NCBI GenBank assembly: GCA_963815455.1
Contig: CAWFGO010000002.1
Location: forward strand, 652,708-716,707
Reading direction: 5' to 3'
DNA: 64,000 bases
Source of the DNA: an uncultured Verrucomicrobiae bacterium
GTDB lineage: Bacteria > Verrucomicrobiota > Verrucomicrobiia > Chthoniobacterales > UBA10450
Below the pieces are notes generated by a model. The model saw only the letters and a list, made by a program, of their open reading frames with translations, ran no database searches and was not told where the DNA came from. Numbering within the stretch: the stretch's first letter is position 1; each line of letters opens with the position of its first letter. Position numbers and translations under genes: made by a program. Below are positions 2,543-63,050 of the stretch, piece by piece.

Positions 2543-5356
2543 ATGGGCCAGAACTACAAGGACACGCTCAATCTGCCGCGCACGGATTTCCCGATGAAGG
2601 CGAACCTTGCTTCGCGGGAGCCGGAATTGCTCAAAGCGTGGGAGGAAACAGGCCTCTATCGGCAAATTCAAGAGTCACGACAGGATCGAGAACTGTTCGT
2701 TTTGCATGACGGCCCGCCCTTTGCCAACGGCGACGTCCACATGGGCACCGCGCTCAACAAGATTCTCAAGGATTTCGTGGTGAAATCGCAAACCATGCTC
2801 GGCAAACGCGCGCCGTATGTGCCCGGCTGGGATTGTCACGGACTGCCCATCGAATTCAAAGTGGTCAAGGAATCACGCGACCTTTCGCCGCTCGAAGTCC
2901 GCAAAAAATCCGAGGCGTTTGCCCGCAAATATGTCGATATCCAGCGCGAGCAGTTCAAACGGCTCGGCGTTCTCGGCGATTGGGAGCACCCCTACCTCAC
3001 TCTCGATCCGAAATACGAAGCTGAGATTTTGCGCGCGTTCGCCGTGTTCGTCGAAAAGGACCTGGTTTATCAATCGCAGAAACCGGTGTTCTGGAGCACC
3101 GGCGCGCAGACCGCGCTGGCCGAGGCCGAGGTGGAATATCAAGAGCGCGATGACACGACTGTTTATGTGAAGTTTCCGATCGCCAGCAATTCTGTAAGGG
3201 AAGCTGACAGCTTCCCAGCCGGAACCAGCATCGCCATCTGGACAACAACGCCGTGGACGTTGCCGGCCAACCTCGCCATCGCTGTCGATCCTAAGGAAAC
3301 CTATGTAATCCAAAAGTTTTCGCGCGATGGCGCTTCTGAGACGCTCCTGCTGGCCGAAAAACTCATCCCGCAATTCTGCGCCAATACCGGATTCGCGCCT
3401 CTCGGCAAACCGCTCGCATCGTTTCCCGGAGCGAAGATCGACAAGATCAAAGCGCGCCATCCTTTCTTGGATCGCGAAGCAATCGTGCTCACGGCGGATT
3501 TTGTCACGATGGATACTGGTACCGGCGCCGTGCACATCGCGCCCGGCCACGGCGAGGACGATTACAAACTCGGCCGCGCAAACAATCTGCCAATCTTGTC
3601 TCCGGTGGACGATCACGGCCTGCTCACGGACGAAGCCGGTCTGCCGAATCTTACGGGCAAGTACGTGTTCGACGCCAACATCGACATCGTCAATTTGTTG
3701 CGCGAACGCGGGATGCTGCTGGCCGCGCAAAAATTCCATCACTCTTATCCGTACTGCTGGCGCTCGAAGACGCCGATCATTTTTCGCAACGTCGAACAAT
3801 TCTTCATCCGCATCGACGCGCTCCGCGAAAAAGCGCTCCAGGCCATTCATAAAGATGTGAAATGGATTCCGGCCTGGGGCGAGAACCGCATCGCCGGCAC
3901 CGTCGAATCGCGGCCCGACTGGGTCATCTCGCGTCAGCGCAGTTGGGGCGTGCCCCTGCCGGTTTTCTATTCAGCCGAAGGCAAACCGATTCTCGACGCG
4001 AAAATCATTCGCAAACTGGCCGATCTCGTTGCCGAGAAAGGTTCAAACATCTGGTTCGAATTGAACGATGTCGATCTTGCTAAAAAGCTCGGGCTTCCCG
4101 ACGGCACAACGAAACGCAACGACACCATCGACGTTTGGATCGATAGCGGCGTGTCGCATAAAGCGGTTTGCGCCCTTCATCCCGAACTGCGCGATCCCGC
4201 CGATATGTATCTGGAAGCGACCGATCAACATCGCGGCTGGTTTCAATCCTCGCTCATGACCAGCATCGCGCTGAACAATCGCGCGCCTTACAAAACCTGC
4301 GTCACCCACGGGTTCGTTGTCGATGTGGATGGCAAGAAAATTTCCAAGTCGGGCACTTACGATAAACCGATGGATGCCGGTCATTTCGTGAACAAACACG
4401 GCGCCGATCTGGTCCGGCTTTGGGCGAGCAGCATCAATTACACGGATGACGTCCCTTTCTCGGAAGAAATGTTCACCCGTCTCGGCGATACCTATCGCCG
4501 GATTCGCAACACGCTGCGGATTTTGCTGGGCAATCTTTTTGATTTCCCTGTAGCCGCGGTCGCTGACCGCGGCCCGGGGTCAACGACCCCGGCTACAACA
4601 TTAGTCGATCGCTGGATCCTGGAGCGGCTCGATGAAGTGATCCGCGATTGTCGAACCGCCTACGAGTCGTTCGAGTTTCACAAGGTTTATCACACGCTCA
4701 ATCAATTTTGCGCAGTCGATTTGAGCAGCCTCTACATCGACATCACCAAGGACCGGATGTATTGCGATGCGCCGGATTCTCCCCGTCGCCGGGCCACGCA
4801 GGCGGTCATGCGCGAAGTTTTCGACGCGCTTTGCAAATTGCTTGCCCCCGTTGTGGCCTTCACCGCCGAGGAAGCCTGGCGACATTTCGCTGTAGCCGCG
4901 GTCGCTGACCGCGGTCCGGCGTCAACGACCCCGGCTACAACATCGATCCACCTCGAAGAATTTCCGGGGCAAAGTGGCATGGGCTTCCAGCCCATGTCCC
5001 CTCGGCAGGATGCCGATGCCACCAGTCAAGTCGGCGAACTGTTGAAGCTGCGCGGCGTAATCGGCCAGGCGATCGAGAAAGCGCGCCAGGAAAAACTCAT
5101 TGGGAACGCGCTGGAGGCCGCTGTTACTTTGAATTCAAACTCCGATGTAACAGCAAAAATCGACAAGGCCGAGCTGGAAGAATTTTTTATCCTCAGCGAT
5201 CTCACGATTGAGCAGGCGACGGAAGCGAGCGCATCCGTCACAAAAACAGCGCACAAGAAATGCGCCCGTTGCTGGCGTCACCGCGAATACGTCGGCAAAA
5301 GCAAGGCGCATCCGGAATTGTGCGACCGGTGCGAACAAGTAGTGAACGCGCGTTAG
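2543..5356 (+). CDS. ileS: Isoleucine--tRNA ligase (type 1)
   Basis: LHDGPPFANGDVHMGT (HIGH-like), GWDCHGLPIE, WTTTPWTLP, DWVISRQR, KISKS, C-terminal CARC...CDRC zinc finger; followed by lspA. Confidence 0.98.
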   Translation: MGQNYKDTLNLPRTDFPMKANLASREPELLKAWEETGLYRQIQESRQDRELFVLHDGPPFANGDVHMGTALNKILKDFVVKSQTMLGKRAPYVPGWDCHGLPIEFKVVKESRDLSPLEVRKKSEAFARKYVDIQREQFKRLGVLGDWEHPYLTLDPKYEAEILRAFAVFVEKDLVYQSQKPVFWSTGAQTALAEAEVEYQERDDTTVYVKFPIASNSVREADSFPAGTSIAIWTTTPWTLPANLAIAVDPKETYVIQKFSRDGASETLLLAEKLIPQFCANTGFAPLGKPLASFPGAKIDKIKARHPFLDREAIVLTADFVTMDTGTGAVHIAPGHGEDDYKLGRANNLPILSPVDDHGLLTDEAGLPNLTGKYVFDANIDIVNLLRERGMLLAAQKFHHSYPYCWRSKTPIIFRNVEQFFIRIDALREKALQAIHKDVKWIPAWGENRIAGTVESRPDWVISRQRSWGVPLPVFYSAEGKPILDAKIIRKLADLVAEKGSNIWFELNDVDLAKKLGLPDGTTKRNDTIDVWIDSGVSHKAVCALHPELRDPADMYLEATDQHRGWFQSSLMTSIALNNRAPYKTCVTHGFVVDVDGKKISKSGTYDKPMDAGHFVNKHGADLVRLWASSINYTDDVPFSEEMFTRLGDTYRRIRNTLRILLGNLFDFPVAAVADRGPGSTTPATTLVDRWILERLDEVIRDCRTAYESFEFHKVYHTLNQFCAVDLSSLYIDITKDRMYCDAPDSPRRRATQAVMREVFDALCKLLAPVVAFTAEEAWRHFAVAAVADRGPASTTPATTSIHLEEFPGQSGMGFQPMSPRQDADATSQVGELLKLRGVIGQAIEKARQEKLIGNALEAAVTLNSNSDVTAKIDKAELEEFFILSDLTIEQATEASASVTKTAHKKCARCWRHREYVGKSKAHPELCDRCEQVVNAR
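3193..3216 (+). repeat. REP-like palindrome inside ileS (TGTAAGGGAAGCTGACAGCTTCCC)
   Basis: GGGAAGCTG-A-CAGCTTCCC hairpin; a related copy (22/24) is reconstructable at 30414-30468. Confidence 0.7.
4549..4597. repeat. 49-bp GTAG-type REP doublet inside ileS, copy 1
   Basis: TGTAGCC...GGCTACA ends, two internal hairpins; 47/49 identical to 4891-4939. Confidence 0.9.
4891..4939. repeat. 49-bp GTAG-type REP doublet inside ileS, copy 2
   Basis: Near-identical to 4549-4597; encodes VAAVADRGPASTTPAT. Confidence 0.9.
4974..5022. repeat. 49-bp GTGG-type REP doublet inside ileS
   Basis: GTGGCATGGGCTTCCAGCCCATG-spacer-CGGCAGGATGCCGATGCCAC; GTGGCAT/ATGCCAC ends and two hairpins. Confidence 0.8.
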
Positions 5357-52261: not shown

Positions 52262-55025
<2,764 letters not shown>

Positions 55026-55187
55026 AATCAATCCAGCGGAGAACCCAGGGGCGCGCGCCGGAACCGCCAAAGTAGTTCCCCCTATTGGTGTGTCAACGAA
55101 CCGTCTCCATCCGCCAACGTAGCACTGGCCTCCGGCCTGTGGGGCCGGCGGGCCCCCGCCTGCCGAGTAGCTCGATTCCTCCCGGAA

Positions 55188-55718
55188 ATGGAAAAACTGC
55201 TGGACCGGACGCGGTGGCAGCTACGTGCGAAACATTATTCCATTCGAACGGAGGAAGTCTACGTCGACTGGATTCGCCGCTTCATACTGTTTCACCGGAA
55301 ACGCCACCCAGACGAGATGGGTGAACGCGAGATCAGCAAGTACCGCAACGCCAATCGTTCCTGGGTATGGCAATATGTATTTCCGGCCGATAAATTGTCG
55401 ATCGACCCGCGTTCGGGAGAACTGCGTCGGCATCATGTGTTAGAAAAGAATCTGCAAAAAGCGGTCAAGATTGCCATCGAGCGAGCGGCCATCAAGAAGG
55501 CGGGCAGCTGCCATACCTTTCGGCATAGTTTTGCTACGCATTTACTGGAAAATGGCCAGGATATTCGTACTGTGCAGGCATTGCTCGGGCACAAAGACGT
55601 ATCCACCACCATGATATATACCCATGTCCTAAATAAACCCGGATTGGGTGTGAGAAGCCCCTTGGACTACGATGCCCCTCCTATTGAAATGAAACCCAAC
55701 CCCGCTCGAAATAGGTGA
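55188..55718 (+). pseudogene. intI: Integron integrase with large in-frame internal deletion
   Basis: N-terminal [27 protein letters not shown] is joined directly to the IntI-specific [15 protein letters not shown]...DPRSG.LRRHH, then [16 protein letters not shown] and TTMIYTHV. Only 176 aa; box I is missing. Confidence 0.92.
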
Positions 55719-55748: not shown

Positions 55749-56066
55749 ATGCGCCGCGCGTTTACAATCGCCCTACTCTGCGCACTAGCAACTGGATGTG
55801 CGGAGCTTCCGTCTCGGGAAGATCGAGCTGTCTCTCAGCTTGACCGTGTCATCATCGCATGGATGCGCGCCAATTCAGTTCGTCCATTTCCAGTGCAGCA
55901 AGAACGTATCGTGGCTTTCGCAGCGGCTTGCCATATGTCCCTCGATTTATCACCATTTAGTCGGCTGGACTGGCAGACCGGAGCGACTTATTTGATCATC
56001 ACATGGCACGTCTCCACTCCAGCTTACCGTGAAGGCACGCTCACATACAGCACCGGGACTATTTGA
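55749..56066 (+). CDS. Cassette 1: putative lipoprotein
   Basis: Lipobox-like LATGC after a hydrophobic signal; bounded by a core site and attC1. Confidence 0.75.
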   Translation: MRRAFTIALLCALATGCAELPSREDRAVSQLDRVIIAWMRANSVRPFPVQQERIVAFAAACHMSLDLSPFSRLDWQTGATYLIITWHVSTPAYREGTLTYSTGTI

Positions 56067-56075
56067 TTCGACCCG

Positions 56076-56198
56076 GTCTAACCAATCGCTCGAGCGAACC
56101 GCCACCCGTCGCGCGCCCGCATTTCAGATGATTAAGCCACTTCCACTTCGAGCACCGCTCGCCCTCACTGGCGGTCGCTCAGCTCTGTCTCGTTAGAT
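56076..56198 (+). other. attC site 1 (123 bp)
   Basis: GTCTAAC...GTTAGAT; arms GCT[C]GAGCG[A]ACCGCCA / TGGCGGTCGCTCAGC with two extrahelical bases. Confidence 0.93.
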
Positions 56199-56200
56199 CT

Positions 56201-56551
56201 ATGAAGCGTCACGTCGCTGTCATCATGCTCTTCGCCGCGGCTTATTTGCATGCTGAGCTACCGCCAGAGATGCAAGGCGCAGAAGCAGTTCGTCTGAACT
56301 TGCTTTTACGTCATCCGCCGCCGGAATTTCCATATGAGGTGCGCCGGACGCTTAAGACCTATAGCGGGGTCTTTCTGCTACGGTTTGATTACGAAAGCGG
56401 CCAGCCACGACAGATTCACATTGCCAAGAGCAGCGGCAATGAGACTTTCGACGCTTCCGTCGTTGCAGCATTGAAGCAGTGGCAGGCAAAGCCTCGTTCA
56501 CTGAAGGTTATCCGGGTTCCAATTACCTTTACCCATAGTGCGCCACGGTAG
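56201..56551 (+). CDS. Cassette 2: exported TonB C-terminal domain protein
   Basis: Signal peptide; PPPEFPYE, SSGNETFDASVVAALKQWQAKP, VPITF. Confidence 0.8.
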   Translation: MKRHVAVIMLFAAAYLHAELPPEMQGAEAVRLNLLLRHPPPEFPYEVRRTLKTYSGVFLLRFDYESGQPRQIHIAKSSGNETFDASVVAALKQWQAKPRSLKVIRVPITFTHSAPR

Positions 56552-56674
56552 ATCTAACCAATCGCTGCAGCCGACGGCTACCCGCTGCGCGTTCACATTT
56601 TTTATGACTAAAACAGTTCCAGAGATTCTCACCCTCGCTTCCGGTAGCCGCGGCTGAGCTTTGTCTCGTTAGGT
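56552..56674 (+). other. attC site 2 (123 bp)
   Basis: ATCTAAC...GTTAGGT; inverse core complementary to the cassette's own core GTTAGAT. Confidence 0.93.
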
Positions 56675-56679
56675 GCTTC

Positions 56680-57543
56680 ATGCGACGCTTGCTCACCATC
56701 GTGATCCTCCTTGCAACCGTTTGTGTCGGTGCGGGGGCATCGGCACCGCACCAGAAAGCGCACGTACTGGATGCCACCGCCTCGCATCCGGTGCGGCTCT
56801 CGTATCTTCTGTTCGTTCCCGACAGCTACGCGAGCACGCCGGATACACGTTGGCCCCTCATTCTTTACTTGCATGGCGGCTCACTGCGCGGCGCCGATGC
56901 AGAGCGCTTACGCACGCTAGGACTTCCCCACATCCTGGAGGACAAGCCGGATTTTCCCTTCATCGTTGTTTCCCCGCTATGTCCCGCGGGCGAGATTTGG
57001 ACGGATGCGGACGCTATCGGCGCGTTGATGGATCGCGTGCTTCACGATTACCGCATCGACGTGAGTCGTGTGTACATCACCGGCCACAGCATGGGCGGTC
57101 GCGGCGCACTCTATTTCGCTTATCGGTTGCCCTCGCGGTTTGCCGCCGTCCTCGCGCTGAGTCCCTATTCTCCGATTACCGCTTGGGGCGGCGAGCTCGC
57201 CCAGACTCCTCTTTGGCTTTTTCATGGCACAGCAGATACGCTCGCACCCATCGCAGATACGAGGGAGATAGTTCAGGCCGTCGAGTCTGCGGGCGGGCAT
57301 CCCAAGTTCAGCATTCTGGAGGGACGCGATCATTTCATTTTGGACGTTTATGATCAGCCGGATATTTACGATTGGCTTTTACGGCAGAAGCGACGTATCC
57401 GGTCCCTCAGCAGCCACCCCGCACCTAACCATGCGATGGAGCGAACGGCGGACCGCTCCGCGTCTACATTTGAGATGACTTCCACACTTCCACTCCGGGC
57501 GAAGCGCGCCCTCGTCCGCCGTCGCTCATCTTGTTCTCGTTAG
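56680..57543 (+). CDS. Cassette 3: exported alpha/beta hydrolase (predicted peptidase/carboxylesterase); ORF reads through attC3
   Basis: LYLHGG, TGHSMGG, FHGTAD, GRDH catalytic triad motifs. Confidence 0.88.
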   Translation: MRRLLTIVILLATVCVGAGASAPHQKAHVLDATASHPVRLSYLLFVPDSYASTPDTRWPLILYLHGGSLRGADAERLRTLGLPHILEDKPDFPFIVVSPLCPAGEIWTDADAIGALMDRVLHDYRIDVSRVYITGHSMGGRGALYFAYRLPSRFAAVLALSPYSPITAWGGELAQTPLWLFHGTADTLAPIADTREIVQAVESAGGHPKFSILEGRDHFILDVYDQPDIYDWLLRQKRRIRSLSSHPAPNHAMERTADRSASTFEMTSTLPLRAKRALVRRRSSCSR

Positions 57544-57545
57544 GT
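57423..57545 (+). other. attC site 3 (123 bp)
   Basis: ACCTAAC...GTTAGGT; very similar to attC4. Confidence 0.93.
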
Positions 57546-57557
57546 GCAGCTCGCGTT

Positions 57558-57995
57558 ATGGTCTTTGATCGTCTCTCTCAGCCGATTCCCCGCGCAGACC
57601 GTCATCGACTTTACCTCTACAGGATTGCCGCTCTATCTCCCAACGCGCGTTTCATGGACTACCTGCTCAACTTCATCGAAGAGCGCTTCGAGCTCCTGCC
57701 ACGCGAGTCTCCTTCGAGGCAGATTTGCTTTCGCCCGCAGTTCACTGCGTTCGTATCTGCAAACAAGACAAAAGGCGGGCTTCACGTTTCACTATTCGGC
57801 GAGGAGTTTCTTACTGGTACGGTTCAGCGCGCCAAGTTTCCCAACTGGCGAAAGTTCGTTGTTTCGCATTCGGACGATCTCTTTACCGCACGTTGCCTCA
57901 TAGAGGAGGCATATCAGCATCGTGTGTCTGCGGACGCCGAGGGCAAGTGGACGTTCCAGGAAGAGCTTGCTCGACTCGCCGAGTTCCATGTGTAA
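57558..57995 (+). CDS. Cassette 4: hypothetical protein
   Basis: 145-aa ORF filling the space between the core site and attC4; no family I can assign firmly. Confidence 0.65.
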   Translation: MVFDRLSQPIPRADRHRLYLYRIAALSPNARFMDYLLNFIEERFELLPRESPSRQICFRPQFTAFVSANKTKGGLHVSLFGEEFLTGTVQRAKFPNWRKFVVSHSDDLFTARCLIEEAYQHRVSADAEGKWTFQEELARLAEFHV

Positions 57996-58004
57996 AACCG
58001 CCAC

Positions 58005-58128
58005 ACCTAACCATGCGATGGAGCGAACGGCGGACCGCTGTGCGATCTGCTTCTGAGATGACTCCCACACTTTCACTCCGAGCGACGCGCGCCCTCGTCC
58101 GCCGTCGCTCATCTTGTTCTCGTTAGAT
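58005..58128 (+). other. attC site 4 (124 bp)
   Basis: ACCTAAC...GTTAGAT with paired arms. Confidence 0.93.
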
Positions 58129-58304
58129 CCAAACAGAGCGGATCACGATCAGCGCGCATCAGTTCTTTTTCGCATCGCCCGTTTGCCTCTCTCGTGATAC
58201 ATTTGGTTTCTCCTCGATTTTCAGACCAGCCCGATGAGTGTCTTGAACTTCCCCGCACACTTCGAAGCCAGATCGAACCGCTGTCGCGACATGGAACGGT
58301 TTCG
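58129..58304. other. Cassette 5: short cassette without a long ORF
   Basis: 176 bp between matching GTTAGATC and GATCTAAC. Confidence 0.8.
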
Positions 58305-58325
58305 ATCTAACCAATCGCTGGAGCT
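58305..58325 (+). other. attC site 5, left part (split by IS)
   Basis: ATCTAACCAATCGCTGGAGCT aligns with the starts of attC1 and attC2. Confidence 0.9.
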
Positions 58326-58336
58326 CCTATGAGGGT

Positions 58337-58342
58337 TGTCAA
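58337..58342 (-). promoter_or_regulatory. Outward-facing -35 box (TTGACA) for a circle-junction promoter
   Basis: Perfect TTGACA on the minus strand, 11 bp inside the IS end. Confidence 0.65.
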
Positions 58343-58395
58343 CCGTGGAACGGGTATTGTTTGTTTTTCTTTAGTTTTTTCCTTTCCCGGTTTTT

Positions 58396-58661
58396 CCAGC
58401 CTTTAGTGGTTTGATCCGCAGGGTGCAGCTTCCCTCTGTCGTGTTGTCTCGCCGGGGCGAGTCACCAGCTCCTATTCGAGCATCGCTTTTGTTGTGCGAG
58501 CCCATGATGTCGTGCCTGACTTTGGGAAGCCGCTTTGGGCGGAACGCGCCCCATCTAAGCGATGATCCCTTGGTTTCAAAGGACCAGCTCCAGCGCCGAG
58601 CAGCGTTCCACCCTGCAGCCAAATCAAACTTTGCTTGGAAGTTCCGTTTCGTAAAAGCTGA
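58396..58661 (-). ncRNA. Predicted bridge/seek RNA of the IS110-family element
   Basis: Two internal-loop hairpins (58537-58613, 58460-58521) whose loop strands match the target and donor junction sequences; enclosing long-range stems. Ends are approximate. Confidence 0.85.
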
Positions 58662-58677
58662 GGGTTAAATCTGTTTG

Positions 58678-59799
58678 TTAGGGTTTCACCTGGGATGTAG
58701 ACAGGCTCCAGCCCAGTTCGGCGGCACTGGCCCGGCCGGTTCGCCAGCGCCAGATGTCTATGGCGAGTTGCCGGGCCAGGGCCACTGCGATTTTCTTTTT
58801 CAGCGAGGCGCCGTGCCTTAATTTCTCCAGATATTTCTGACGAGCATGCCAATTAGGCTGCCAGCGAAGAAGTCGCCAGACCGCCTCGACCAGGAGCGTG
58901 CGCAAATGTTTGTTGCCGTGCCGGTCGATGCTTCCAAAACGCTGGATCCCGGCCGAACTGTATTCGCTAGGACAACACCCAGTGTAACTGCCCACGGCTT
59001 TGCGATGCTTGAAGCGTTGCCAATCGCACACCTCCCCGTCGATCAGCGATACCGTTAGCGCACCCAATCCCGTCGGGATTTTTTCTTCCCTCACCAGCGC
59101 TTCAATCTCCTGGGTCAACCGATCCAATTGCGCTTTGGCCGCTCGGATCTGTTCCATGACCGGTTCAAGCTGCCCGCGCACAAACTCGCTGCACTGCGGC
59201 CCGATTCGTTTCCACTTCCGCGGTCCGCCCCACCCAGCCTCCAGCGTCTCATGCTCGTGCTCGATCCGCAGCGCTCGCCCGTGATTCTCCAGCCGCCGCA
59301 CTTGGCGTTTCCAAAACTCCCGCTGCCGCCCCAGCTCCCGCCGTTGTTGCTCCCCCCGGCTCGGGATTCGGATTGGTCTTAATTCCTCTCTCTGCCCATC
59401 CAGGTAACGGCTCAATCGCACACACAACTCGCGCGCATCCATCCGGTCGTTCTTCCGCCGCCGCTCCAAATTTAATCGCATCGGGGTCGTCCCGACGCTC
59501 TTTGCTCCCGCTTGAGTTAATTGCTCGTGCAGCGTATAACCAAATCCGCAGCATTCCCACACCGCGTAGACCACATCGCCTACACCCACTTTTTGCTTCA
59601 CCCACTCGAGCAACTGCTCGCGAGTATACTTCCGCGCCGGCCCAATCGTTCCCCGCCCACACTGGATCGCCACCACCATAAAACGCAGGTCCACGTCCAG
59701 CCCAAGCTTCCACACCCGCCTCACTGCCCCATTGCCAGGGGCGCTTGAATTGTTAAACTTCTCTCCGCCATGAAGGGTTGTTGTTGTTTTGTTTTTCAT
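58678..59799 (-). CDS. IS110-family DEDD recombinase/transposase
   Basis: LGLDV, VWECCG, KNDRMDA (DEDD RuvC-like); GCCPSEYSSAG, GNKHLRTLLVEA, VALARQLA. Confidence 0.93.
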   Translation of the reverse strand: MKNKTTTTLHGGEKFNNSSAPGNGAVRRVWKLGLDVDLRFMVVAIQCGRGTIGPARKYTREQLLEWVKQKVGVGDVVYAVWECCGFGYTLHEQLTQAGAKSVGTTPMRLNLERRRKNDRMDARELCVRLSRYLDGQREELRPIRIPSRGEQQRRELGRQREFWKRQVRRLENHGRALRIEHEHETLEAGWGGPRKWKRIGPQCSEFVRGQLEPVMEQIRAAKAQLDRLTQEIEALVREEKIPTGLGALTVSLIDGEVCDWQRFKHRKAVGSYTGCCPSEYSSAGIQRFGSIDRHGNKHLRTLLVEAVWRLLRWQPNWHARQKYLEKLRHGASLKKKIAVALARQLAIDIWRWRTGRASAAELGWSLSTSQVKP

Positions 59800-59847
59800 A
59801 CAACGCGTGTGCCCGTTTTGCCCACGCTTTTCAACCCTTCATGGCAT

Positions 59848-59953
59848 CTAACCGCCACCCGCCGTACGCTCCGCGCGACAACATGACTACTGACCACCGA
59901 CTACGGACCACGCTCGCTCTCGGTGGCGGTGGCTCAGCTCCTTCTCGTTAGAT
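59848..59953 (+). other. attC site 5, right part
   Basis: CTAACCGCCACCCG...GGTGGCGGTGGCTCAGCTCCTTCTCGTTAGAT aligns with attC1. Confidence 0.9.
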
Positions 59954-60416
59954 ATTGAACCCCGCGGACTCGGGTAAACGCCCGTTTGTGGGAGGTCAGC
60001 CAACGTCCTTACCGTGCCGCTTTGGTTCGGCCCAAATAGAAGGCGATCGAAGCTGGGATCCCAATGAATACGACAAGAAAACCGATTACGAGCATATGTT
60101 CACATTTAGCACCAATCGTGCCTTTGTTACAACTGTGTTACAGTTGTGTGACGATCATGTAAACAAAAATCGTCGATTAAGTGAAGATTTTTCGGCCGCG
60201 TCCGAAAACGGCTGGCCCAGCCATCCGATAACGGATTCAACCCAACAACCTAGCCAACAAGGTAAGAGGAAACACGGGGCCAGCTCCGAAAGTGTTCGCC
60301 CCGCCACGATGGTATCCCCGCGTGAATAAAGTTCGTCACCGCGAGGACGCGCTCACCAGACACGCCAAACGCCCGAACCGGCGGGCAGGCGGTGCGCTAC
60401 CCTGAACTACGGCAGC

Positions 60417-61424
60417 TTAGCGGCTGCCGGTTCGCGCGCCGGGCGTCGGGCTGGGCCGGGATTTTGTTTTCGTGCTTTTGCGTACGGTGATGGTGGCTTC
60501 GCCGGCCGCTTGTTCTTCAGAAGATTTCTTGCTGCCGCGCCAGATCAGACGCCACGGCTCCGCTTTTATGGTCTCGCTGAATTCCTTGATGTTCGCGCCG
60601 ACCGGTTCGAGATCGCGCATCGTAATTTTTAATTTTTCCGACGAGTCCCGGAAGTTATCGAGCGTCACGGCGAGATTATTGTTGGCCGAGAGGTCGTTGC
60701 TGATTTTTTCTATGTTCCTGAGCGAGACCGAAAGCGGGCTGTCCGGCGCGGAAAGATCGACAAGGTGCTCGCCGAACTTCTTGAACTGAACCAGGGCAAG
60801 GTTGAGCTCGGAATTCTGCTCGGTGATACGGCTGAGATTTTGCGCCGTGGTCTCCAGCTCTTTCATGGTGGAGGTCGCTTCGGCCGCGACCGGCTTGATG
60901 ATTTCGAGCATCTTGGACGCCGCTTCGCTAAAATCCGGGGTGCGTTCGCCGGCGAAAATCTCGCCGTCGTGGGCCTGCCCTGACGCCTCGGTGCCCTGGG
61001 TGAAGTCGATCGCCATTTCGCCGAGCAAGCCGAGCTGCATCAGGCGCGCGTAGGCATCGCGATAAACGATCCCGCTCTTGTCCACCTGGACGTCGATGCG
61101 TGCTTCATATTTCGGTTTGCCATCGGGCCGCGCCGGCGTCGCGCCTGGCTCCGGTTTACGATAAACAGCGGCGGCTTCCTGCGCCCGCTGCTCTTCTTCA
61201 CGCGACACGGGCGAGAACAATTTTGAAACCTGGCCGATCTTTCGTCCGGCCAGCATGACCGGCGCCCCCAGTTTAATTCCGGCGGCGTTATCGACGTAAA
61301 TTCGATAGGTCACCAGCGGGCGGAAAAGCCCGGGCGCGCCGAGAAGGATGAGCACAAACGCGAGCGCGGCCACGGTGCCGACCACGAGCAGTCCGGTCAT
61401 TATTTCATTTCGTCGTAATTGCAT
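60417..61424 (-). CDS. mlaD: MCE/MlaD family protein
   Basis: N-terminal TM, NAAGIKLGAPVMLAGRKIGQV, GLLGE. Confidence 0.88.
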   Translation of the reverse strand: MQLRRNEIMTGLLVVGTVAALAFVLILLGAPGLFRPLVTYRIYVDNAAGIKLGAPVMLAGRKIGQVSKLFSPVSREEEQRAQEAAAVYRKPEPGATPARPDGKPKYEARIDVQVDKSGIVYRDAYARLMQLGLLGEMAIDFTQGTEASGQAHDGEIFAGERTPDFSEAASKMLEIIKPVAAEATSTMKELETTAQNLSRITEQNSELNLALVQFKKFGEHLVDLSAPDSPLSVSLRNIEKISNDLSANNNLAVTLDNFRDSSEKLKITMRDLEPVGANIKEFSETIKAEPWRLIWRGSKKSSEEQAAGEATITVRKSTKTKSRPSPTPGARTGSR

Positions 61425-62196
61425 CTTGGCTGCCTTCCAGAATGGGACCTTCGGTGCTGCCGCTCAAGAACTGAGCGACGACCGGGTTTTGCGATTGTTT
61501 GAATTTCTCGGGCTCGGCATCTTCAATGATTTTTCCCTGGTATAACATAGCCATTCGCGTGCCGATGCGAAAGGCGCTGCCCATGTCGTGGGTCACTATA
61601 ATCGAAGTCACTTTCGATTTCTCGGTGAGACTGATTATTAATTCGTCGATGACCGCGGTGATCACGGGGTCGAGCCCGGCGGATGGTTCGTCGAACAGGA
61701 TCAGCTCCGGCTCGAGAACGAGAGCGCGGGCCAGGCTCACGCGTTTCCGCATACCGCCGCTTAACTCCGAGGGCATTTGTTCTCGCGCTTCCAGCATGCC
61801 GACGAGCTCGAGTTTGTGATCGACAATTTCATCAATTTCTTTGCGCGATTTATCGGTCAATTCCTCGAGCGGTAAAGCGACGTTTTCCCGCACGTTGCGC
61901 GAGCTCAATAGCGCGGAGTATTGATAAACCATTCCGATGTTCTGACGGACCTGTTGCAACTTTCGCCGGCGCAGCCGGGTGACTTCGAATTGTTTAAAGA
62001 ACACCGAGCCTGCGTCGGGTTGAAGAATTCCCAGAATAAGCCGCAGAATGGTGCTTTTGCCGCTGCCGCTTTGGCCCATTACGACCAGCCGATCGCATGA
62101 GTTCACATCGAGCGACATGTCGTCGAGCACTTTCTTTTCCTCGAACTGCTTGGTCACATCGCGCAGCTCAACCACGTGGGAATTGGTCGCGTTCAC
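61405..62196 (-). CDS. mlaF: ABC transporter ATP-binding protein, MlaF/Mkl family
   Basis: GQSGSGKS, PSELSGGMRKRV, LFDEPSAGLDP, VTHD. Confidence 0.92.
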   Translation of the reverse strand: MNATNSHVVELRDVTKQFEEKKVLDDMSLDVNSCDRLVVMGQSGSGKSTILRLILGILQPDAGSVFFKQFEVTRLRRRKLQQVRQNIGMVYQYSALLSSRNVRENVALPLEELTDKSRKEIDEIVDHKLELVGMLEAREQMPSELSGGMRKRVSLARALVLEPELILFDEPSAGLDPVITAVIDELIISLTEKSKVTSIIVTHDMGSAFRIGTRMAMLYQGKIIEDAEPEKFKQSQNPVVAQFLSGSTEGPILEGSQDAITTK

Positions 62197-63050
62197 AATG
62201 GGAAGAAGACGATGTAAACAATGTTATAGAGCGTATCGAAACCGATCACCGTGGTGATGGCGGTAACCACGCTCGATGTAGTCGCCGTGCCGACACCGGC
62301 GGCACCGCCTTTCACGGTTAGCCCCCGGTAACACGCAATTCCAGCGATCAAGAAACCGAAAATGAAGCTCTTGAGGATGCCGGTGATGATATCGCGAATG
62401 AGCAATGCATCGGTCACCAGATCGATAAAATAAGGGAAAGCCATGCTAAAGTAAGCCCGACAAACCAGACTGCTGCCGGCAATCGCGGCCACGTTCGCCA
62501 CCGTGGAAAGACACGGCATCAGGAGAAACAGCGCCAGCATACGAGGCGCAACCAAAAATCGCAGCGGACCGATTCCCATTGCTTCGATCGCTTCCACTTC
62601 CTCGGATACCTGCATTGTGCCCAGCTCGGCCGTGAAAGCCGCGCCGATCCGGGCCGCCAGCATGATTCCCGTGATCAATGGGCCGAGCTCGCGGGTAAAC
62701 GCGATTGAAACCAGGCCAGGAACCAGCCGCTCCGTGCCAAAACGCTGCAATTGATAGCCGGTGAGCAGGGCCATGGTCAGGCCAAGCAAAAATGAAACCA
62801 GGCCCACCAACGGGACCGAATCGACCCCGGCCCGTTCGGTATGCCGGAAAAAACTGGACGCGCGAAATGGGACGCGGCCGTTGCGAATACGCTCGAACGT
62901 TTCGGCAAGCGTCTGAATGACGAACCAAAAGATGCTCCCAACTTCTATGAAAAAGTTGTCGCCAAACCGGCCAAATTCGCGGACAAAAACAAGCGGATTC
63001 GCCGAGAGCGCGTTCTCGGATTCGGATTTGTCATTGTCGATGCCGGGCAT
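62193..63050 (-). CDS. mlaE: ABC transporter permease, MlaE family
   Basis: RELGP, AELGTMQVSEEVEA, VGTATTSSVV. Confidence 0.93.
   Translation of the reverse strand: MPGIDNDKSESENALSANPLVFVREFGRFGDNFFIEVGSIFWFVIQTLAETFERIRNGRVPFRASSFFRHTERAGVDSVPLVGLVSFLLGLTMALLTGYQLQRFGTERLVPGLVSIAFTRELGPLITGIMLAARIGAAFTAELGTMQVSEEVEAIEAMGIGPLRFLVAPRMLALFLLMPCLSTVANVAAIAGSSLVCRAYFSMAFPYFIDLVTDALLIRDIITGILKSFIFGFLIAGIACYRGLTVKGGAAGVGTATTSSVVTAITTVIGFDTLYNIVYIVFFPL

What the first reader, a model, noticed from the sequence alone, without database searches (positions are those of the whole stretch)
58396..58661. Bridge/seek RNA in the IS non-coding region, with guides matching an integron attC target and the element's own ends
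Seen in the sequence: on the transposase (minus) strand the region after the stop codon can form hairpin 1, with outer stem GGGUGGAACGC/GCGUUCCGCCC (58613-58603 / 58547-58537) and inner stem GGUCCUUUG/CAAGGGAUC. Its internal loop carries CGCUGGAGCU (58595-58586), identical to the left target flank plus core CGCTGGAGCT (58316-58325). The opposite loop strand carries UUAG (58558-58555), complementary to core plus right flank CTAA (59848-59851). Hairpin 2 (stem AGUCA/UGACU, inner GGGC-UCGC/GCGA-U-GCUC) has CACGACAUC (58514-58506), 7/9 identical to the donor end CATGGCATC (59840-59848). Its other loop strand, AUAGGAG (58475-58469), is complementary to core plus the other IS end, CTCCTAT (58324-58330). 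Long-range pairs (58652-58660 with 58397-58405; 58623-58629 with 58409-58415) enclose both hairpins. Established: IS110/IS1111 elements use a bispecific RNA with target- and donor-binding loops around a 2-nt core, and IS1111-type elements carry it 3' of the transposase. Inference: this is a complete RNA-guided recombinase system aimed at attC sites, and it may be reprogrammable. I cannot tell from the sequence whether this particular element is already described.
Basis: partly seen in the sequence, partly recalled or inferred. Interest (0 to 1): 0.95.

Follow-up and report, generated by a model that had tools for sequence, protein, structure and literature searches.

The report
Guide RNA of an integron-seeking jumping gene
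The stretch after the transposase gene of this 1.5-kb insertion sequence encodes a folded guide RNA that spells out the integron recombination site the element sits in, a mechanism described in 2024, here seen in a soil Verrucomicrobiota lineage.

Summary
The element (58324-59849) is an IS1111-type IS110-family insertion sequence. It splits the fifth attC site of a short cassette array, with its transposase antisense to the cassettes.

Its 352-nt 3' non-coding region folds into a closed RNA domain. On 65 distinct relatives, 97.0% of cells pair, against 41-48% in slid controls, and 18 of 46 pairs change on both sides.

The two guide strands of hairpin 1 match the attC flanks. They co-vary with the flanks across 54 and 59 unique insertion sites (0 of 10000 permutations each).

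Hairpin 2's inner stem and its match to the right end hold, and both co-vary in relatives at 34-40% identity. Its outer stem AGUCA/UGACU is unresolved, so the donor guides probably sit in a multiloop.

Whether the RNA is made could not be tested.

This is a new member of a known kind. attC-targeting IS1111 seekRNAs were shown experimentally in 2024 (PMC11187229), and this scan has noted the kind in at least eight other genomes.

Most novel point: at 55 of 55 informative sites the junctions carry the pattern expected from transfer of one strand only.

The parts
58324..59849 (-). Whole insertion: 1522-bp IS body (58326-59847) between two copies of the core dinucleotide (58324-58325 and 59848-59849, both CT on + in this copy).
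   Evidence: Five copies in the genome. The boundaries come from four copies with different flanks and from an uninterrupted attC at 58005-58128. Collapsed-repeat contigs of relatives begin and end at the same motifs.
58678..59799 (-). Transposase gene, 373 aa, IS110-family RNA-guided (DEDD/Tnp) type.
   Evidence: NCBIfam NF033542 scores 160.9 bits against a cut-off of 140. Pfam Transposase_20 gives 1.6e-15. DEDD_Tnp_IS110 reaches only 17.2 bits, below its cut-off of 29. The protein aligns full-length with relatives at 59-82% identity. The copy at C3 is identical in protein.
58396..58661 (-). Bridge/seek RNA domain, closed by long-range pairing of its 5' and 3' ends.
   Evidence: MFE z = -3.85. 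46 pairs are 97.0% paired on 65 sequences. The segments outside P1 form duplexes of -13.9 kcal/mol, against -7.5 when shuffled and -11.4 when cross-paired; L011, L015 and L016 use different but complementary sequences.
58537..58613 (-). Target-binding hairpin: outer stem 58603-58613 / 58537-58547, internal loop, inner hairpin 58564-58585.
   Evidence: Helices 2 and 3 are 98.6% and 98.5% paired. Six of their pairs show changes on both sides.
58586..58595 (-). 5' guide strand CGCUGGAGCU. It is identical to + 58316-58325 and would pair with the other strand of the attC arm.
   Evidence: In 54 unique sites the 8 nt next to the core match exactly in 34, with one mismatch in 15, with two in 3, and worse in 2. 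Permutation gives 449 matches against 403.3 +/- 5.4, 0 of 10000.
58552..58561 (-). 3' guide strand CGCUUAG, followed by AUG (handshake-like). It matches the junction + 59845-59854 at 9 of 10 positions.
   Evidence: Across 59 unique sites the guide co-varies with the left flank: 375 matches against 350.8 +/- 3.9, 0 of 10000.
58425..58533 (-). Donor-binding domain: closing stem P2 (58524-58533 / 58425-58434), inner hairpin (58496-58503 / 58478-58486) and third hairpin (58441-58465).
   Evidence: Helices 4 to 7. The inner hairpin is 99.8% paired, with 21-27 of 65 sequences changed on both sides at three of its pairs and 4 of 65 at a fourth.
58467..58475 (-). Donor guide for the right end: AUAGG + AG (core) + CU. 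It equals the reverse complement of + 58322-58330.
   Evidence: The strand is invariant in 91 of 95 loci, though that motif was also my search anchor. The distant clade has AUAGCAG together with a right end reading ...CATAGC, in 4 of 4 visible ends.
58505..58514 (-). Candidate donor guide for the left end, CACGACAUCA. It matches the expected CATGGCATCT at 7 of 10 positions.
   Evidence: The position next to the inner stem is conserved. In distant relatives the base opposite the 4th base of the left end co-varies: U with ATGAC in 6 elements, G with ATGCC in 1. This clade carries a mismatching A.
58329..58338 (.). Sub-terminal inverted repeat, right-end copy (ATGAGGGTTG). It overlaps a TTGACA on the minus strand at 58337-58342.
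59832..59842 (.). Sub-terminal inverted repeat, left-end copy (reverse complement ATGAAGGGTTG).
58305..58325 (+). Left part of the split attC: R'' box ATCTAAC, spacer, L'' arm.
   Evidence: Comparison with four intact 123-124-bp attC sites in the window.
59850..59953 (+). Right part of the split attC, ending in the R' box GTTAGAT.

Best explanation
The window holds an intact IS1111-type member of the IS110 family. It is inserted just after the L'' arm, 13-14 bp inside the R'' end, of an integron attC site.

**The RNA.** The 352-nt region after the transposase stop codon is transcribed with the transposase, on the minus strand. It folds into a closed domain of about 266 nt with two guide-bearing modules.

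**Module 1, the target-binding loop.**
- It is an internal loop.
- Its 5' strand (CGCUGGAG + CU) pairs with one strand of the attC arm to one side of the crossover.
- Its 3' strand (CGCUUAG) pairs with the other strand on the other side.
- The two meet at a core dinucleotide.

**Module 2, the donor-binding part.**
- It presents AUAGG+AG for the right end and GACAUC for the left end of the circularised element, probably in a multiloop.
- In both modules, two or three bases after the core complement (AUG and CU) match the partner DNA as it would read after strand exchange. This is what the handshake guides of IS621 do.

**Recombination.** The transposase-RNA complex then recombines circle and target at the core.

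**Shown here.** Sequence matches, conserved structure, guide-target and guide-end covariation, several near-identical copies all in attC sites, and unoccupied matching sites.

**Inferred.** That the RNA is made, where its ends lie, that the protein binds it, and the chemistry.
For: **The element**
- The transposase is a member of NF033542, 'IS110 family RNA-guided transposase' (160.9 bits, cut-off 140).
- It has the IS1111 anatomy: a 48-nt left and a 352-nt right non-coding end, and 10-11-bp sub-terminal inverted repeats.

**Activity**
- The genome holds five copies at 96-100% DNA identity.
- The four copies with visible flanks lie at the same point of four different attC sites.
- Two copies encode the full 373-aa protein.

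**Structure**
- 46 pairs counted on 65 distinct sequences are 97.0% paired, against 40.8-48.0% with the partners slid by 1-3 columns.
- 18 pairs change on both sides.
- 0 of 500 shuffles reach any of the five measures.

**Target guides**
- The 10-mer is seen only twice in 64 kb.
- 5' guide variants go with their own flanks. All counts are exact matches of the 8 nt next to the core.

| 5' guide (8 nt) | exact matches |
|---|---|
| CGAUGAAG | 10 of 13 |
| CGCUGCAG | 4 of 7 |
| CGAUGGAG | 4 of 4 |
| CGCUGGAG (ending CU or UU) | 16 of 28 |

- Permutation gives 0 of 10000 for each guide strand.
- On a tree of 87 elements the guide state changes at least 13 times. Phylogenetically independent pairs go the same way about 10 times and the opposite way 0 times. 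Each single test is too small to reach 0.05.

**Donor guides**
- AUAGGAGCU matches the right junction at 9 of 9.
- Relatives at 34-40% identity have AUAGCAG in 7 of 7 and right ends reading ...CATAGC in 4 of 4 visible.
- Their left-end guide base follows the left end.
- Their target guides match quite different, non-attC flanks: 8 nt each in G054 and G294.

**Agreement with the literature**
- The guide order is the one reported for IS1111 seekRNAs: the strand complementary to the top strand comes first, in transposase orientation (PMC11187229, section 9 read).
- The multiloop donor site is as reported for many IS1111 (PMC11208160, passage read).
Against: - **No evidence that the RNA exists.** No run on record as RNA holds the stretch (a blank, not evidence either way). 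No sigma-70-like promoter was found on the minus strand inside the element.
- **Weak left-end guide in this clade.** It matches at only 7 of 10 positions, and its last base does not match the core.
- **Mismatched core base.** The second core base of the target disagrees with the guide's U in most sites; the exact base is present in 11% of the 54 unique right-flank sites.
- **A recurrent guide mismatch.** The commonest 3' guide, CGCUUAG, mismatches the commonest flank, CGGTTAG, at one fixed position (16 of 59 sites).
- **Exceptions.**
  - L014 is offset by one base.
  - L011 and L017 have deviant left ends.
  - L027 and L083 have deviant right ends.
- **A published limit on the donor module.** For ISEc11 a short 82-nt RNA holding only the target module was enough for transposition (PMC11187229, passage read). 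The donor module may therefore not be required.
- **Weak protein evidence beyond the family hit.** Pfam's DEDD domain is below its cut-off. No solved relative is found by sequence. The AlphaFold model is too poor to compare (mean pLDDT 55.0).
Confidence: 0.88

Rival explanations
1. Only hairpin 1 is the working guide, a short seekRNA of about 80 nt. The second module is a scaffold, a processing signal or a transcript-stabilising structure, and its matches to the element's ends are by-products of the ends being conserved.
For: For ISEc11 the 82-nt RNA was sufficient, and more efficient than the long form (42% against about 15-23% for reprogrammed long forms). The authors say the role of the long RNA is not established (PMC11187229, passages read). 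In this clade both ends and both donor strands are nearly invariant, so there is no covariation within the clade. The left-end match is 7 of 10.
Against: Across clades the right-end guide and the right end change together (AUAGG/CATAGG against AUAGC/CATAGC). The left-end guide base follows the left end in 7 of 7 distant elements. The geometry copies that of module 1: inner stem, 2 nt, 7-nt guide ending in AG, then bases matching the partner DNA. The inner hairpin is under strong structural selection.
Confidence: 0.2
2. The transposase recognises the folded attC by protein contacts alone. The non-coding region is an ordinary structured 3' UTR or terminator, and its 10-nt identity to the flank is chance or a captured piece of target.
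For: attC sites are recognised as structures by integron integrases (established knowledge). No RNA evidence is available here.
Against: Guides and flanks change together at several positions and in several lineages. Sister elements with the same RNA architecture carry guides for unrelated, non-attC flanks. The matching segments lie in the internal loop between two covarying stems. The scan found no terminator-like site on the minus strand in 58326-58677; the two minus-strand sites it found lie inside the gene.
Confidence: 0.03
3. The region is protein-coding. ORFs of 83, 85 and 126 aa overlap it.
For: The mechanical ORF list shows 58371-58622 (-), 58411-58668 (+) and 58472-58852 (-).
Against: Relatives differ by insertions and deletions of 1, 2 and 4 nt in the hairpin loops, and by paired compensatory changes. 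That is the pattern of an RNA, not of a reading frame.
Confidence: 0.01

Closest known systems
seekRNAs of the attC-targeting IS1111 members ISKpn4, ISPst6 and ISPa25 (Siddiquee et al. 2024, PMC11187229), and the IS1111-attC group (ISPa21, ISPst6; Tetu & Holmes 2008, known to me only through citing passages)
   Same: - The RNA lies downstream of the transposase.
- Two short guide segments match opposite strands of the target, in the IS1111 order.
- The element inserts near the 5' (R'') end of attC, antisense to the cassettes (PMC3001079, passage read).
- It has sub-terminal inverted repeats.
   Different: - The host is a soil Verrucomicrobiota (Limisphaerales-like) chromosome, not a proteobacterial integron.
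- The transposase is under 30% identical to every listed hit among the 5000 best-scoring plasmid records, including IS5075 and IS4321 at 24%.
- Identity to ISKpn4, ISPst6 and ISPa21 themselves was not measured.
- I could not compare the exact cut point within attC with theirs, because those papers are not held.
IS621 bridge RNA (Durrant et al. 2024, PMC11208160; Hiraizumi et al. 2024; PMC13626964)
   Same: - There are two modules, target first and donor second.
- In each module a 5' strand is identical to the left arm plus core on the CT strand, and a 3' strand is complementary to core plus right arm.
- The donor core is CT.
- Two or three bases next to the core complement match the partner DNA after exchange, like the handshake guides.
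   Different: - The RNA is in the right end, and the element sits in the opposite orientation relative to the CT strand.
- The sub-terminal repeats are long.
- The donor guides are probably in a multiloop.
- The target's second core base is free, whereas the IS621 core is described as invariant CT (PMC13626964, passage read).
- No sequence-detectable similarity to solved IS621 chains was found.
ISEc11 and ISPa11 (IS1111 members with linear or REP targets)
   Same: The same family anatomy and the same RNA position.
   Different: The targets differ. The distant Verrucomicrobiota clade found here (G054, G294) resembles these in aiming at non-attC sites.

Membership tests
IS110 family, IS1111 group | DEDD/Tnp-type RNA-guided transposase | tested here: met
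   NF033542 scores 160.9 bits against a cut-off of 140 over residues 33-351. Transposase_20 gives 57.7 bits.
IS110 family, IS1111 group | RuvC-like DEDD domain and catalytic serine in place | tested here: inconclusive
   PF01548 reaches 17.2 bits, below its cut-off of 29. Invariant D35, E82, D118, D121 and S281/S282 in alignment A1 fit the recalled motif positions. No structural check was possible: mean pLDDT 55.0 and no PDB hit.
IS110 family, IS1111 group | Long non-coding end downstream of the transposase, short one upstream | tested here: met
   352 nt against 48 nt.
IS110 family, IS1111 group | Sub-terminal inverted repeats of 7-17 bp | tested here: met
   ATGAGGGTTG (58329-58338) against ATGAAGGGTTG (reverse complement of 59832-59842). 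They lie 3 and 5 nt from the ends.
IS110 family, IS1111 group | Site- and orientation-specific insertion without a long target duplication | tested here: met
   Four of four flanked copies in the genome, and 59 unique sites in relatives, lie at the same point of the attC arm.
IS110 family, IS1111 group | Circular intermediate with a junction promoter | not testable with these tools
   A TTGACA lies 13 nt from the right end. The matching -10 across the junction would be weak (CATGAA at a 17-nt spacing, read from the sequence).
Bridge RNA / seekRNA | Structured RNA with an internal loop whose two strands match opposite strands of the target and meet at the crossover | tested here: met
Bridge RNA / seekRNA | Guides co-vary with insertion sites | tested here: met
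Bridge RNA / seekRNA | Second loop matching both ends of the element | tested here: met
   The right end matches at 9 of 9, with covariation across clades. The left end matches at 7 of 10 here, with covariation among distant relatives. The loop topology is unresolved.
Bridge RNA / seekRNA | RNA is made and co-purifies with the transposase | not testable with these tools
   No RNA holder is listed.
Bridge RNA / seekRNA | Match to a curated RNA family | tested here: not met
   No relevant Rfam 15 match in 57500-60500 at E up to 1; the only hit was a chance snoRNA at E 0.23. This is not a defining feature of the kind. It only means that no curated model covers this RNA.
IS1111-attC group | [quoted passage not shown] | tested here: met
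   The R'' box is at 58305-58311 and the insertion follows 58325. The cassette ORFs and attC sites read on +, the transposase on - (definition from PMC3001079, passage read).
IS1111-attC group | Transposase falls in one clade with ISPst6 and ISPa21 | not tested
   No reference sequences were at hand. Identity under 30% to all listed plasmid-borne relatives hints at a separate lineage.

The most novel reading that the evidence does not exclude
**One-strand transfer.** The natural insertion junctions of this family are a footprint of one-strand transfer.

- The target's second core base usually differs from the donor's T.
- In 55 of 55 informative unique sites, the junction on the target's left arm keeps the target's base and the other junction carries the donor's CT.
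- A two-strand exchange across a mismatched core would leave a heteroduplex. About half of the descendants would then show the reverse pattern; none does.
- This fits transfer of the CT strand only, cut 3' of the core and completed by replication. Two recent preprints report this from in-vitro work on IS110-group elements (abstracts read for both; passages of the 2025 one as well).
- If so, it extends that mechanism to the IS1111 group, in nature, and shows that the second core base need not match.

**Independent origin of attC targeting.** attC targeting in this lineage may have arisen independently of the proteobacterial IS1111-attC group, by natural rewriting of guides. The sister clade is aimed at non-attC sites.
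Probability: 0.45. Interest if true: 0.55.

Novelty: new member of a known kind. Interest (0 to 1): 0.35.

Why it matters
This is not a new principle. It does give an unusually well-replicated natural data set for an RNA-guided recombinase:

- about 90 related elements
- at least six guide variants
- more than 50 independent insertion sites
- a sister clade with other targets

From such a set one can read which guide positions must pair and which tolerate mismatch or wobble. The set also shows how the donor guides sit in an IS1111-type RNA. It shows which strand's information survives integration.

The finding also shows that integron cassette arrays of soil Verrucomicrobiota are colonised by RNA-guided elements that split attC sites, and a split attC is unlikely to recombine, which would fix that cassette in the array.

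Tried and rejected
- **Rfam**: no family matched; the only hit was a chance snoRNA at E 0.23.
- **Sequencing runs**: no RNA holder listed. All 20 holders are DNA runs holding a small share of the words, so I laid no reads.
- **PDB by sequence**, with the single protein and with a profile: nothing.
- **AlphaFold2 on a 7-row alignment**: mean pLDDT 55.0 and pTM 0.35. This is too poor for a fold search, so I ran none.
- **Promoter scan**: the one promoter-like site is on the + strand at 59732-59759. None lies on the transposase strand.
- **RNAalifold's consensus**: it pairs CAUCA with UGGUG and closes the target hairpin with CGC/GCG instead of using the long-range P1. I preferred P1 and a GUG/CAC base for the third hairpin on the strength of L011, L034, L038, L052, L061 and L095. 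The three options around 58460-58468 cannot be told apart by covariation.
4 of its 5 pairs are compatible in 56-65 of 65 sequences, but they are almost invariant. The fifth pair forms in only 18 of 65.
- **The Tetu & Holmes 2008 paper** (PMC2447020): not held.
- **Finding ISKpn4 or ISPa21 in the plasmid collection by tblastn**: the listed rows are IS5075, IS4321, ISEc45 and unnamed elements. The relation to the named attC group is therefore untested.
- **A slip in the tree test**: my fifth test used the wrong guide position and says nothing.
Full report

- The 10-mer CGCTGGAGCT occurs exactly twice in the 64-kb window. One copy is the flank at 58316-58325 (+) and the other lies in the non-coding region at 58586-58595 (-). 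Shuffles expect 0.15.
- Folded alone, 58396-58661 (-) gives -107.2 kcal/mol against -86.9 +/- 5.3 for 200 shuffles (z = -3.85). That fold contains hairpin 1 and the long-range closing pairs.
- Rfam 15 has no family that matches.

**What the element is.**

- The minus-strand ORF 58678-59799 (373 aa) meets NCBIfam's equivalog model for 'IS110 family RNA-guided transposase' (160.9 bits, cut-off 140). It also meets Pfam Transposase_20. The Pfam DEDD domain is only weakly seen (17.2 bits, cut-off 29).
- The genome is 3.6 Mb in 7 contigs. The record titles of its relatives name Verrucomicrobiota/Limisphaerales MAGs.
- It holds five copies at 96-100% DNA identity.
  - Two copies encode the whole protein.
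  - One has a changed C-terminus.
  - One is frameshifted.
  - One is decayed and cut off by a contig end.
- I set the boundaries by comparing the four flanked copies with an uninterrupted attC at 58005-58128. The body is 58326-59847 (1522 bp), with a dinucleotide on each side at 58324-58325 and 59848-59849.
- The anatomy is that of the IS1111 group:
  - a 48-nt non-coding left end and a 352-nt right end;
  - sub-terminal inverted repeats ATGAGGGTTG / ATGAAGGGTTG, 3 and 5 nt from the ends.

**Context.**

- The window carries four intact attC sites of 123-124 bp: 56076-56198, 56552-56674, 57423-57545 and 58005-58128. A fifth is split by the element into 58305-58325 and 59850-59953.
- Upstream lies an internally deleted integron-type integrase (54957-55718).
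- The cassettes and attC sites read on the + strand and the transposase on the minus strand.
- The insertion is 13-14 bp inside the R'' end. This is the placement reported for the IS1111-attC group: 'near the 5'-end of attC, antisense to the cassette array' (PMC3001079, passage read).
- The genome holds 55 empty-site-like matches to the guide, 34 of them in an attC context. Targets are therefore not exhausted.

**Relatives.**

- A scan of species-representative genomes gave 10 loci at 60-86% protein identity.
- A metagenome scan gave 270 confirmed stretches out of 467 pattern matches. The best 80, at 75-84% identity, were kept.
- Of the 95 loci in hand, 91 carry the RNA motifs I used as anchors. 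The four without them are L005, L019, L044 and L067. 87 hold the full stretch that I cut out, and they give 65 distinct sequences.

**Structure.** I aligned 65 distinct 277-nt stretches (A2) and counted a structure of 46 pairs in seven helices.

- 97.0% of cells form standard pairs, against 40.8-48.0% when the 3' partners are slid by 1-3 columns.
- 18 pairs show changes on both sides (120 cells).
- 0 of 500 shuffles reach any of the five measures.

| Helix | Window coordinates (minus strand) | Note |
|---|---|---|
| P1, long-range | 58611-58617 with 58417-58423 | closes the domain |
| Hairpin 1, outer stem | 58603-58613 / 58537-58547 | extended by three more pairs (CUC/GGG) |
| Hairpin 1, inner hairpin | 58564-58585 | |
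| P2 | 58524-58533 / 58425-58434 | closes the donor domain |
| Hairpin 2, inner stem | 58496-58503 / 58478-58486 | 21-27 of 65 sequences changed on both sides at three pairs, 4 of 65 at a fourth |
| Third hairpin | 58441-58465 | counted as two helices |

- Outside P1 the 5' and 3' flanks still pair: -13.9 kcal/mol on average, against -7.5 shuffled and -11.4 cross-paired. L011, L015 and L016 achieve this with different sequences.
It competes with CAUCA/UGGUG, which RNAalifold chose, and with GUG/CAC at the base of the third hairpin. All three are nearly invariant.
- The donor guides therefore probably sit in a multiloop. Durrant et al. say the same of many IS1111 orthologues (PMC11208160, passage read).

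**Target guides.** In transposase orientation, the 5' strand of the hairpin-1 loop is the reverse complement of core plus right flank. The 3' strand is identical to left flank plus core. This is the order reported for IS1111 seekRNAs (PMC11187229, section 9 read).

Of the 91 loci, 77 have a 5' guide with a right flank and 79 have a 3' guide with a left flank. Four were dropped for deviant ends: L027, L083, L011 and L017. Collapsing duplicates leaves 54 and 59 unique sites.

- *5' guide.* The 8 nt next to the core match the flank exactly in 34 of 54 sites, with one mismatch in 15, with two in 3, and worse in 2 (L011; L014, which is offset by one base). All counts below are exact matches.

| 5' guide (8 nt) | Flank that goes with it | Exact matches |
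|---|---|---|
| CGAUGAAG | CTTCATCG | 10 of 13 |
| CGCUGCAG | CTGCAGCG | 4 of 7 |
| CGAUGGAG | CTCCATCG | 4 of 4 |
| CGCUGGAG (ending CU or UU) | CTCCAGCG | 16 of 28 |

- *3' guide.* CCGUUAG goes with CCGTTAG, CGGUUAG with CGGTTAG, and CGGUCAG with CGGTCAG. The commonest guide, CGCUUAG, keeps one fixed mismatch to CGGTTAG in 16 sites.
- *Permutation.* Shuffling guides among sites gives 449 matches against 403.3 +/- 5.4, and 375 against 350.8 +/- 3.9. Both are 0 of 10000.
- *Relatedness.* Kin inflate such tests, so I built a tree of 87 elements from the transposase region (FastTree). The guide state changes at least 13 times. In phylogenetically independent pairs the flank goes the same way about 10 times and the opposite way 0 times, summed over four positions. 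No single position has enough pairs to reach 0.05.

**Donor guides.**

- AUAGGAG is followed by CU, so 58475-58467 equals the reverse complement of + 58322-58330 at 9 of 9 positions. Read from the RNA's 5' end, that is the right end, the core, then two bases of the target arm.
- The 3' strand of hairpin 1 reads CGCUUAG then AUG. It matches the other junction at 9 of 10 positions: three bases of the left end, the core, then the target.
- In both modules the bases after the core complement thus match the partner DNA as it reads after exchange. This is the role of the handshake guides in IS621 (PMC13626964, passage read). This is an analogy by position, not a test.
- Within the clade the ends and donor strands hardly vary, so I looked further out. 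In a sample of 401 genomes of the phylum, 8 including this one have a match at E <= 1e-30. The other seven hold elements at 34-40% identity.
  - All seven carry GGAUAGCAGGUU in the homologous place.
  - The four whose right end is visible end in ...CATAGC before AG. The guide and the end thus differ from ours together (G to C).
  - Their left ends begin ATGAC in six elements and ATGCC in one. The guide base opposite the fourth position is U in the six and G in the one.
  - Our clade has ATGCC with a mismatching A.
- Their target guides match quite different, non-attC flanks. G054, with four copies, has AAGCCCCU (8 nt) and UUGUAG. G294 has UGACCCCU (8 nt) and UAAAG.

The second module is therefore best read as a donor-binding site. 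The architecture as a whole is re-aimed between clades.

**A caution on the donor module.** For ISEc11 the short 82-nt RNA holding only the target module was sufficient for transposition, and the authors leave the role of the long form open (PMC11187229, passage read). I keep 'hairpin 2 is dispensable' as a rival at 0.2.

**The core and the junctions.**

- I read the junctions on the strand that carries CT, the window's + strand.
- In all 59 unique sites with both junctions, the right junction reads CT. The left junction reads CC in 37, CG in 16, CT in 4 and TC in 2.
- Empty attC sites in this genome have G (21), C (9) or T (4) at that position. The left base therefore belongs to the target and the right one to the element.
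- The guide's U can wobble with the G that lies opposite a C, but it mismatches the others.
- The IS621 core is described as invariant CT. Here it is not.
- A two-strand exchange over a mismatched core would leave heteroduplex at both junctions, and half the descendants would carry the reverse pattern. In 55 of 55 informative sites none does.
- This is what transfer of the CT strand alone, cut 3' of the core and completed by replication, would leave. Two preprints report top-strand insertion and single-strand excision for IS110-group elements in vitro (10.1101/2025.10.25.684509, abstract and passages read; 10.64898/2026.08.31.748434, abstract read).
- Biased mismatch repair, or a cut geometry without a 2-nt stagger, are not excluded.

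**What is not shown.**

- No RNA run holds the stretch, so expression, RNA ends and processing are unknown.
- No promoter-like site lies on the transposase strand.
- A perfect TTGACA sits 13 nt from the right end. It could serve as the -35 of a junction promoter on the circle, as known for ISEc11. This is recalled from citations and was not tested.
- The protein model was too poor to compare with IS621.

**Novelty.**

- The kind is known. seekRNAs of attC-targeting IS1111 members (ISKpn4, ISPst6, ISPa25) were purified with their transposases and mapped in 2024 (PMC11187229). Bridge RNAs were predicted in 93% of IS1111 elements (PMC11208160).
- This scan has already reported attC-targeting IS1111 guide RNAs in at least eight other genomes.
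- A full-text search for Verrucomicrobi* with attC and IS110 found three papers. Judged by titles and the starts of their abstracts only, none is about such an element.
- The transposase is under 30% identical to every listed hit among the 5000 best-scoring plasmid records. Its place relative to the named attC group was not tested.
- I file it as a new member of a known kind. The size and cleanness of the natural guide-site table, and the junction footprint, are its real value.

Noticed in passing
window 58324-58325 and 59848-59849; relatives L002-L099: The junctions are asymmetric. The right (+) junction core is CT in 59 of 59 unique sites. The left junction keeps a target-derived base (CC 37, CG 16, CT 4, TC 2). 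The pattern fits one-strand (CT-strand) transfer.
   Followed up: partly
window 54957-55718 (+): An integron-type tyrosine recombinase ORF with an internal deletion. It matches the N-terminal SAM-like domain (residues 81-130) and only profile positions 94-169 of 172 of the catalytic domain. It lies on the same strand as the cassettes, directly upstream of the array.
   Followed up: partly
window 55749-58128: The cassette array has 123-124-bp attC sites. The cassette ORFs include a TonB_C-domain protein (56201-56551), an alpha/beta-hydrolase or esterase (56680-57543), and two ORFs with no Pfam match. Two ORFs run into the attC and share the same C-terminal residues, which the attC encodes.
   Followed up: partly
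window 59846-59852: The last four bases of the insertion (AT + CT) plus the target's AAC recreate ATCTAAC, identical to the original R'' box at 58305-58311. My attC pattern scan therefore calls a 108-bp pseudo-attC (59846-59953) that lacks the L'' arm.
   Followed up: no
L077:1966 region; L005: L077 has lost the 5' half of the target-binding hairpin, so it is a naturally guide-less copy. L005, the fifth copy in this genome, has several 1-2-nt deletions in the gene and changes within AUAGGAG and just after it.
   Followed up: no
L016 (two RNA motifs, near 3787 and 5906): Two copies of the element appear to lie about 2 kb apart in the same orientation, probably in neighbouring attC sites.
   Followed up: no
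G000:C1:1714426-1714580 (L006): A 155-nt stretch 68% identical to part of the transposase gene lies about 2 kb from the copy at C1:1710952. It is possibly the remnant of a second, related element.
   Followed up: no
L107, L108, L109 (contigs of 1413-1487 bp): In three genomes the distant relative is a whole contig. In each contig where I saw an end, the contig starts at the left-end motif after AG, and two of them end just after the right-end motif. This is the signature of a multi-copy repeat collapsed by the assembler, and it independently marks the element's boundaries.
   Followed up: partly
window 60417-63050 (-): A MlaD-ABC ATPase-MlaE operon (Pfam MlaD, ABC_tran, MlaE) follows directly after the cassette array.
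   Followed up: partly
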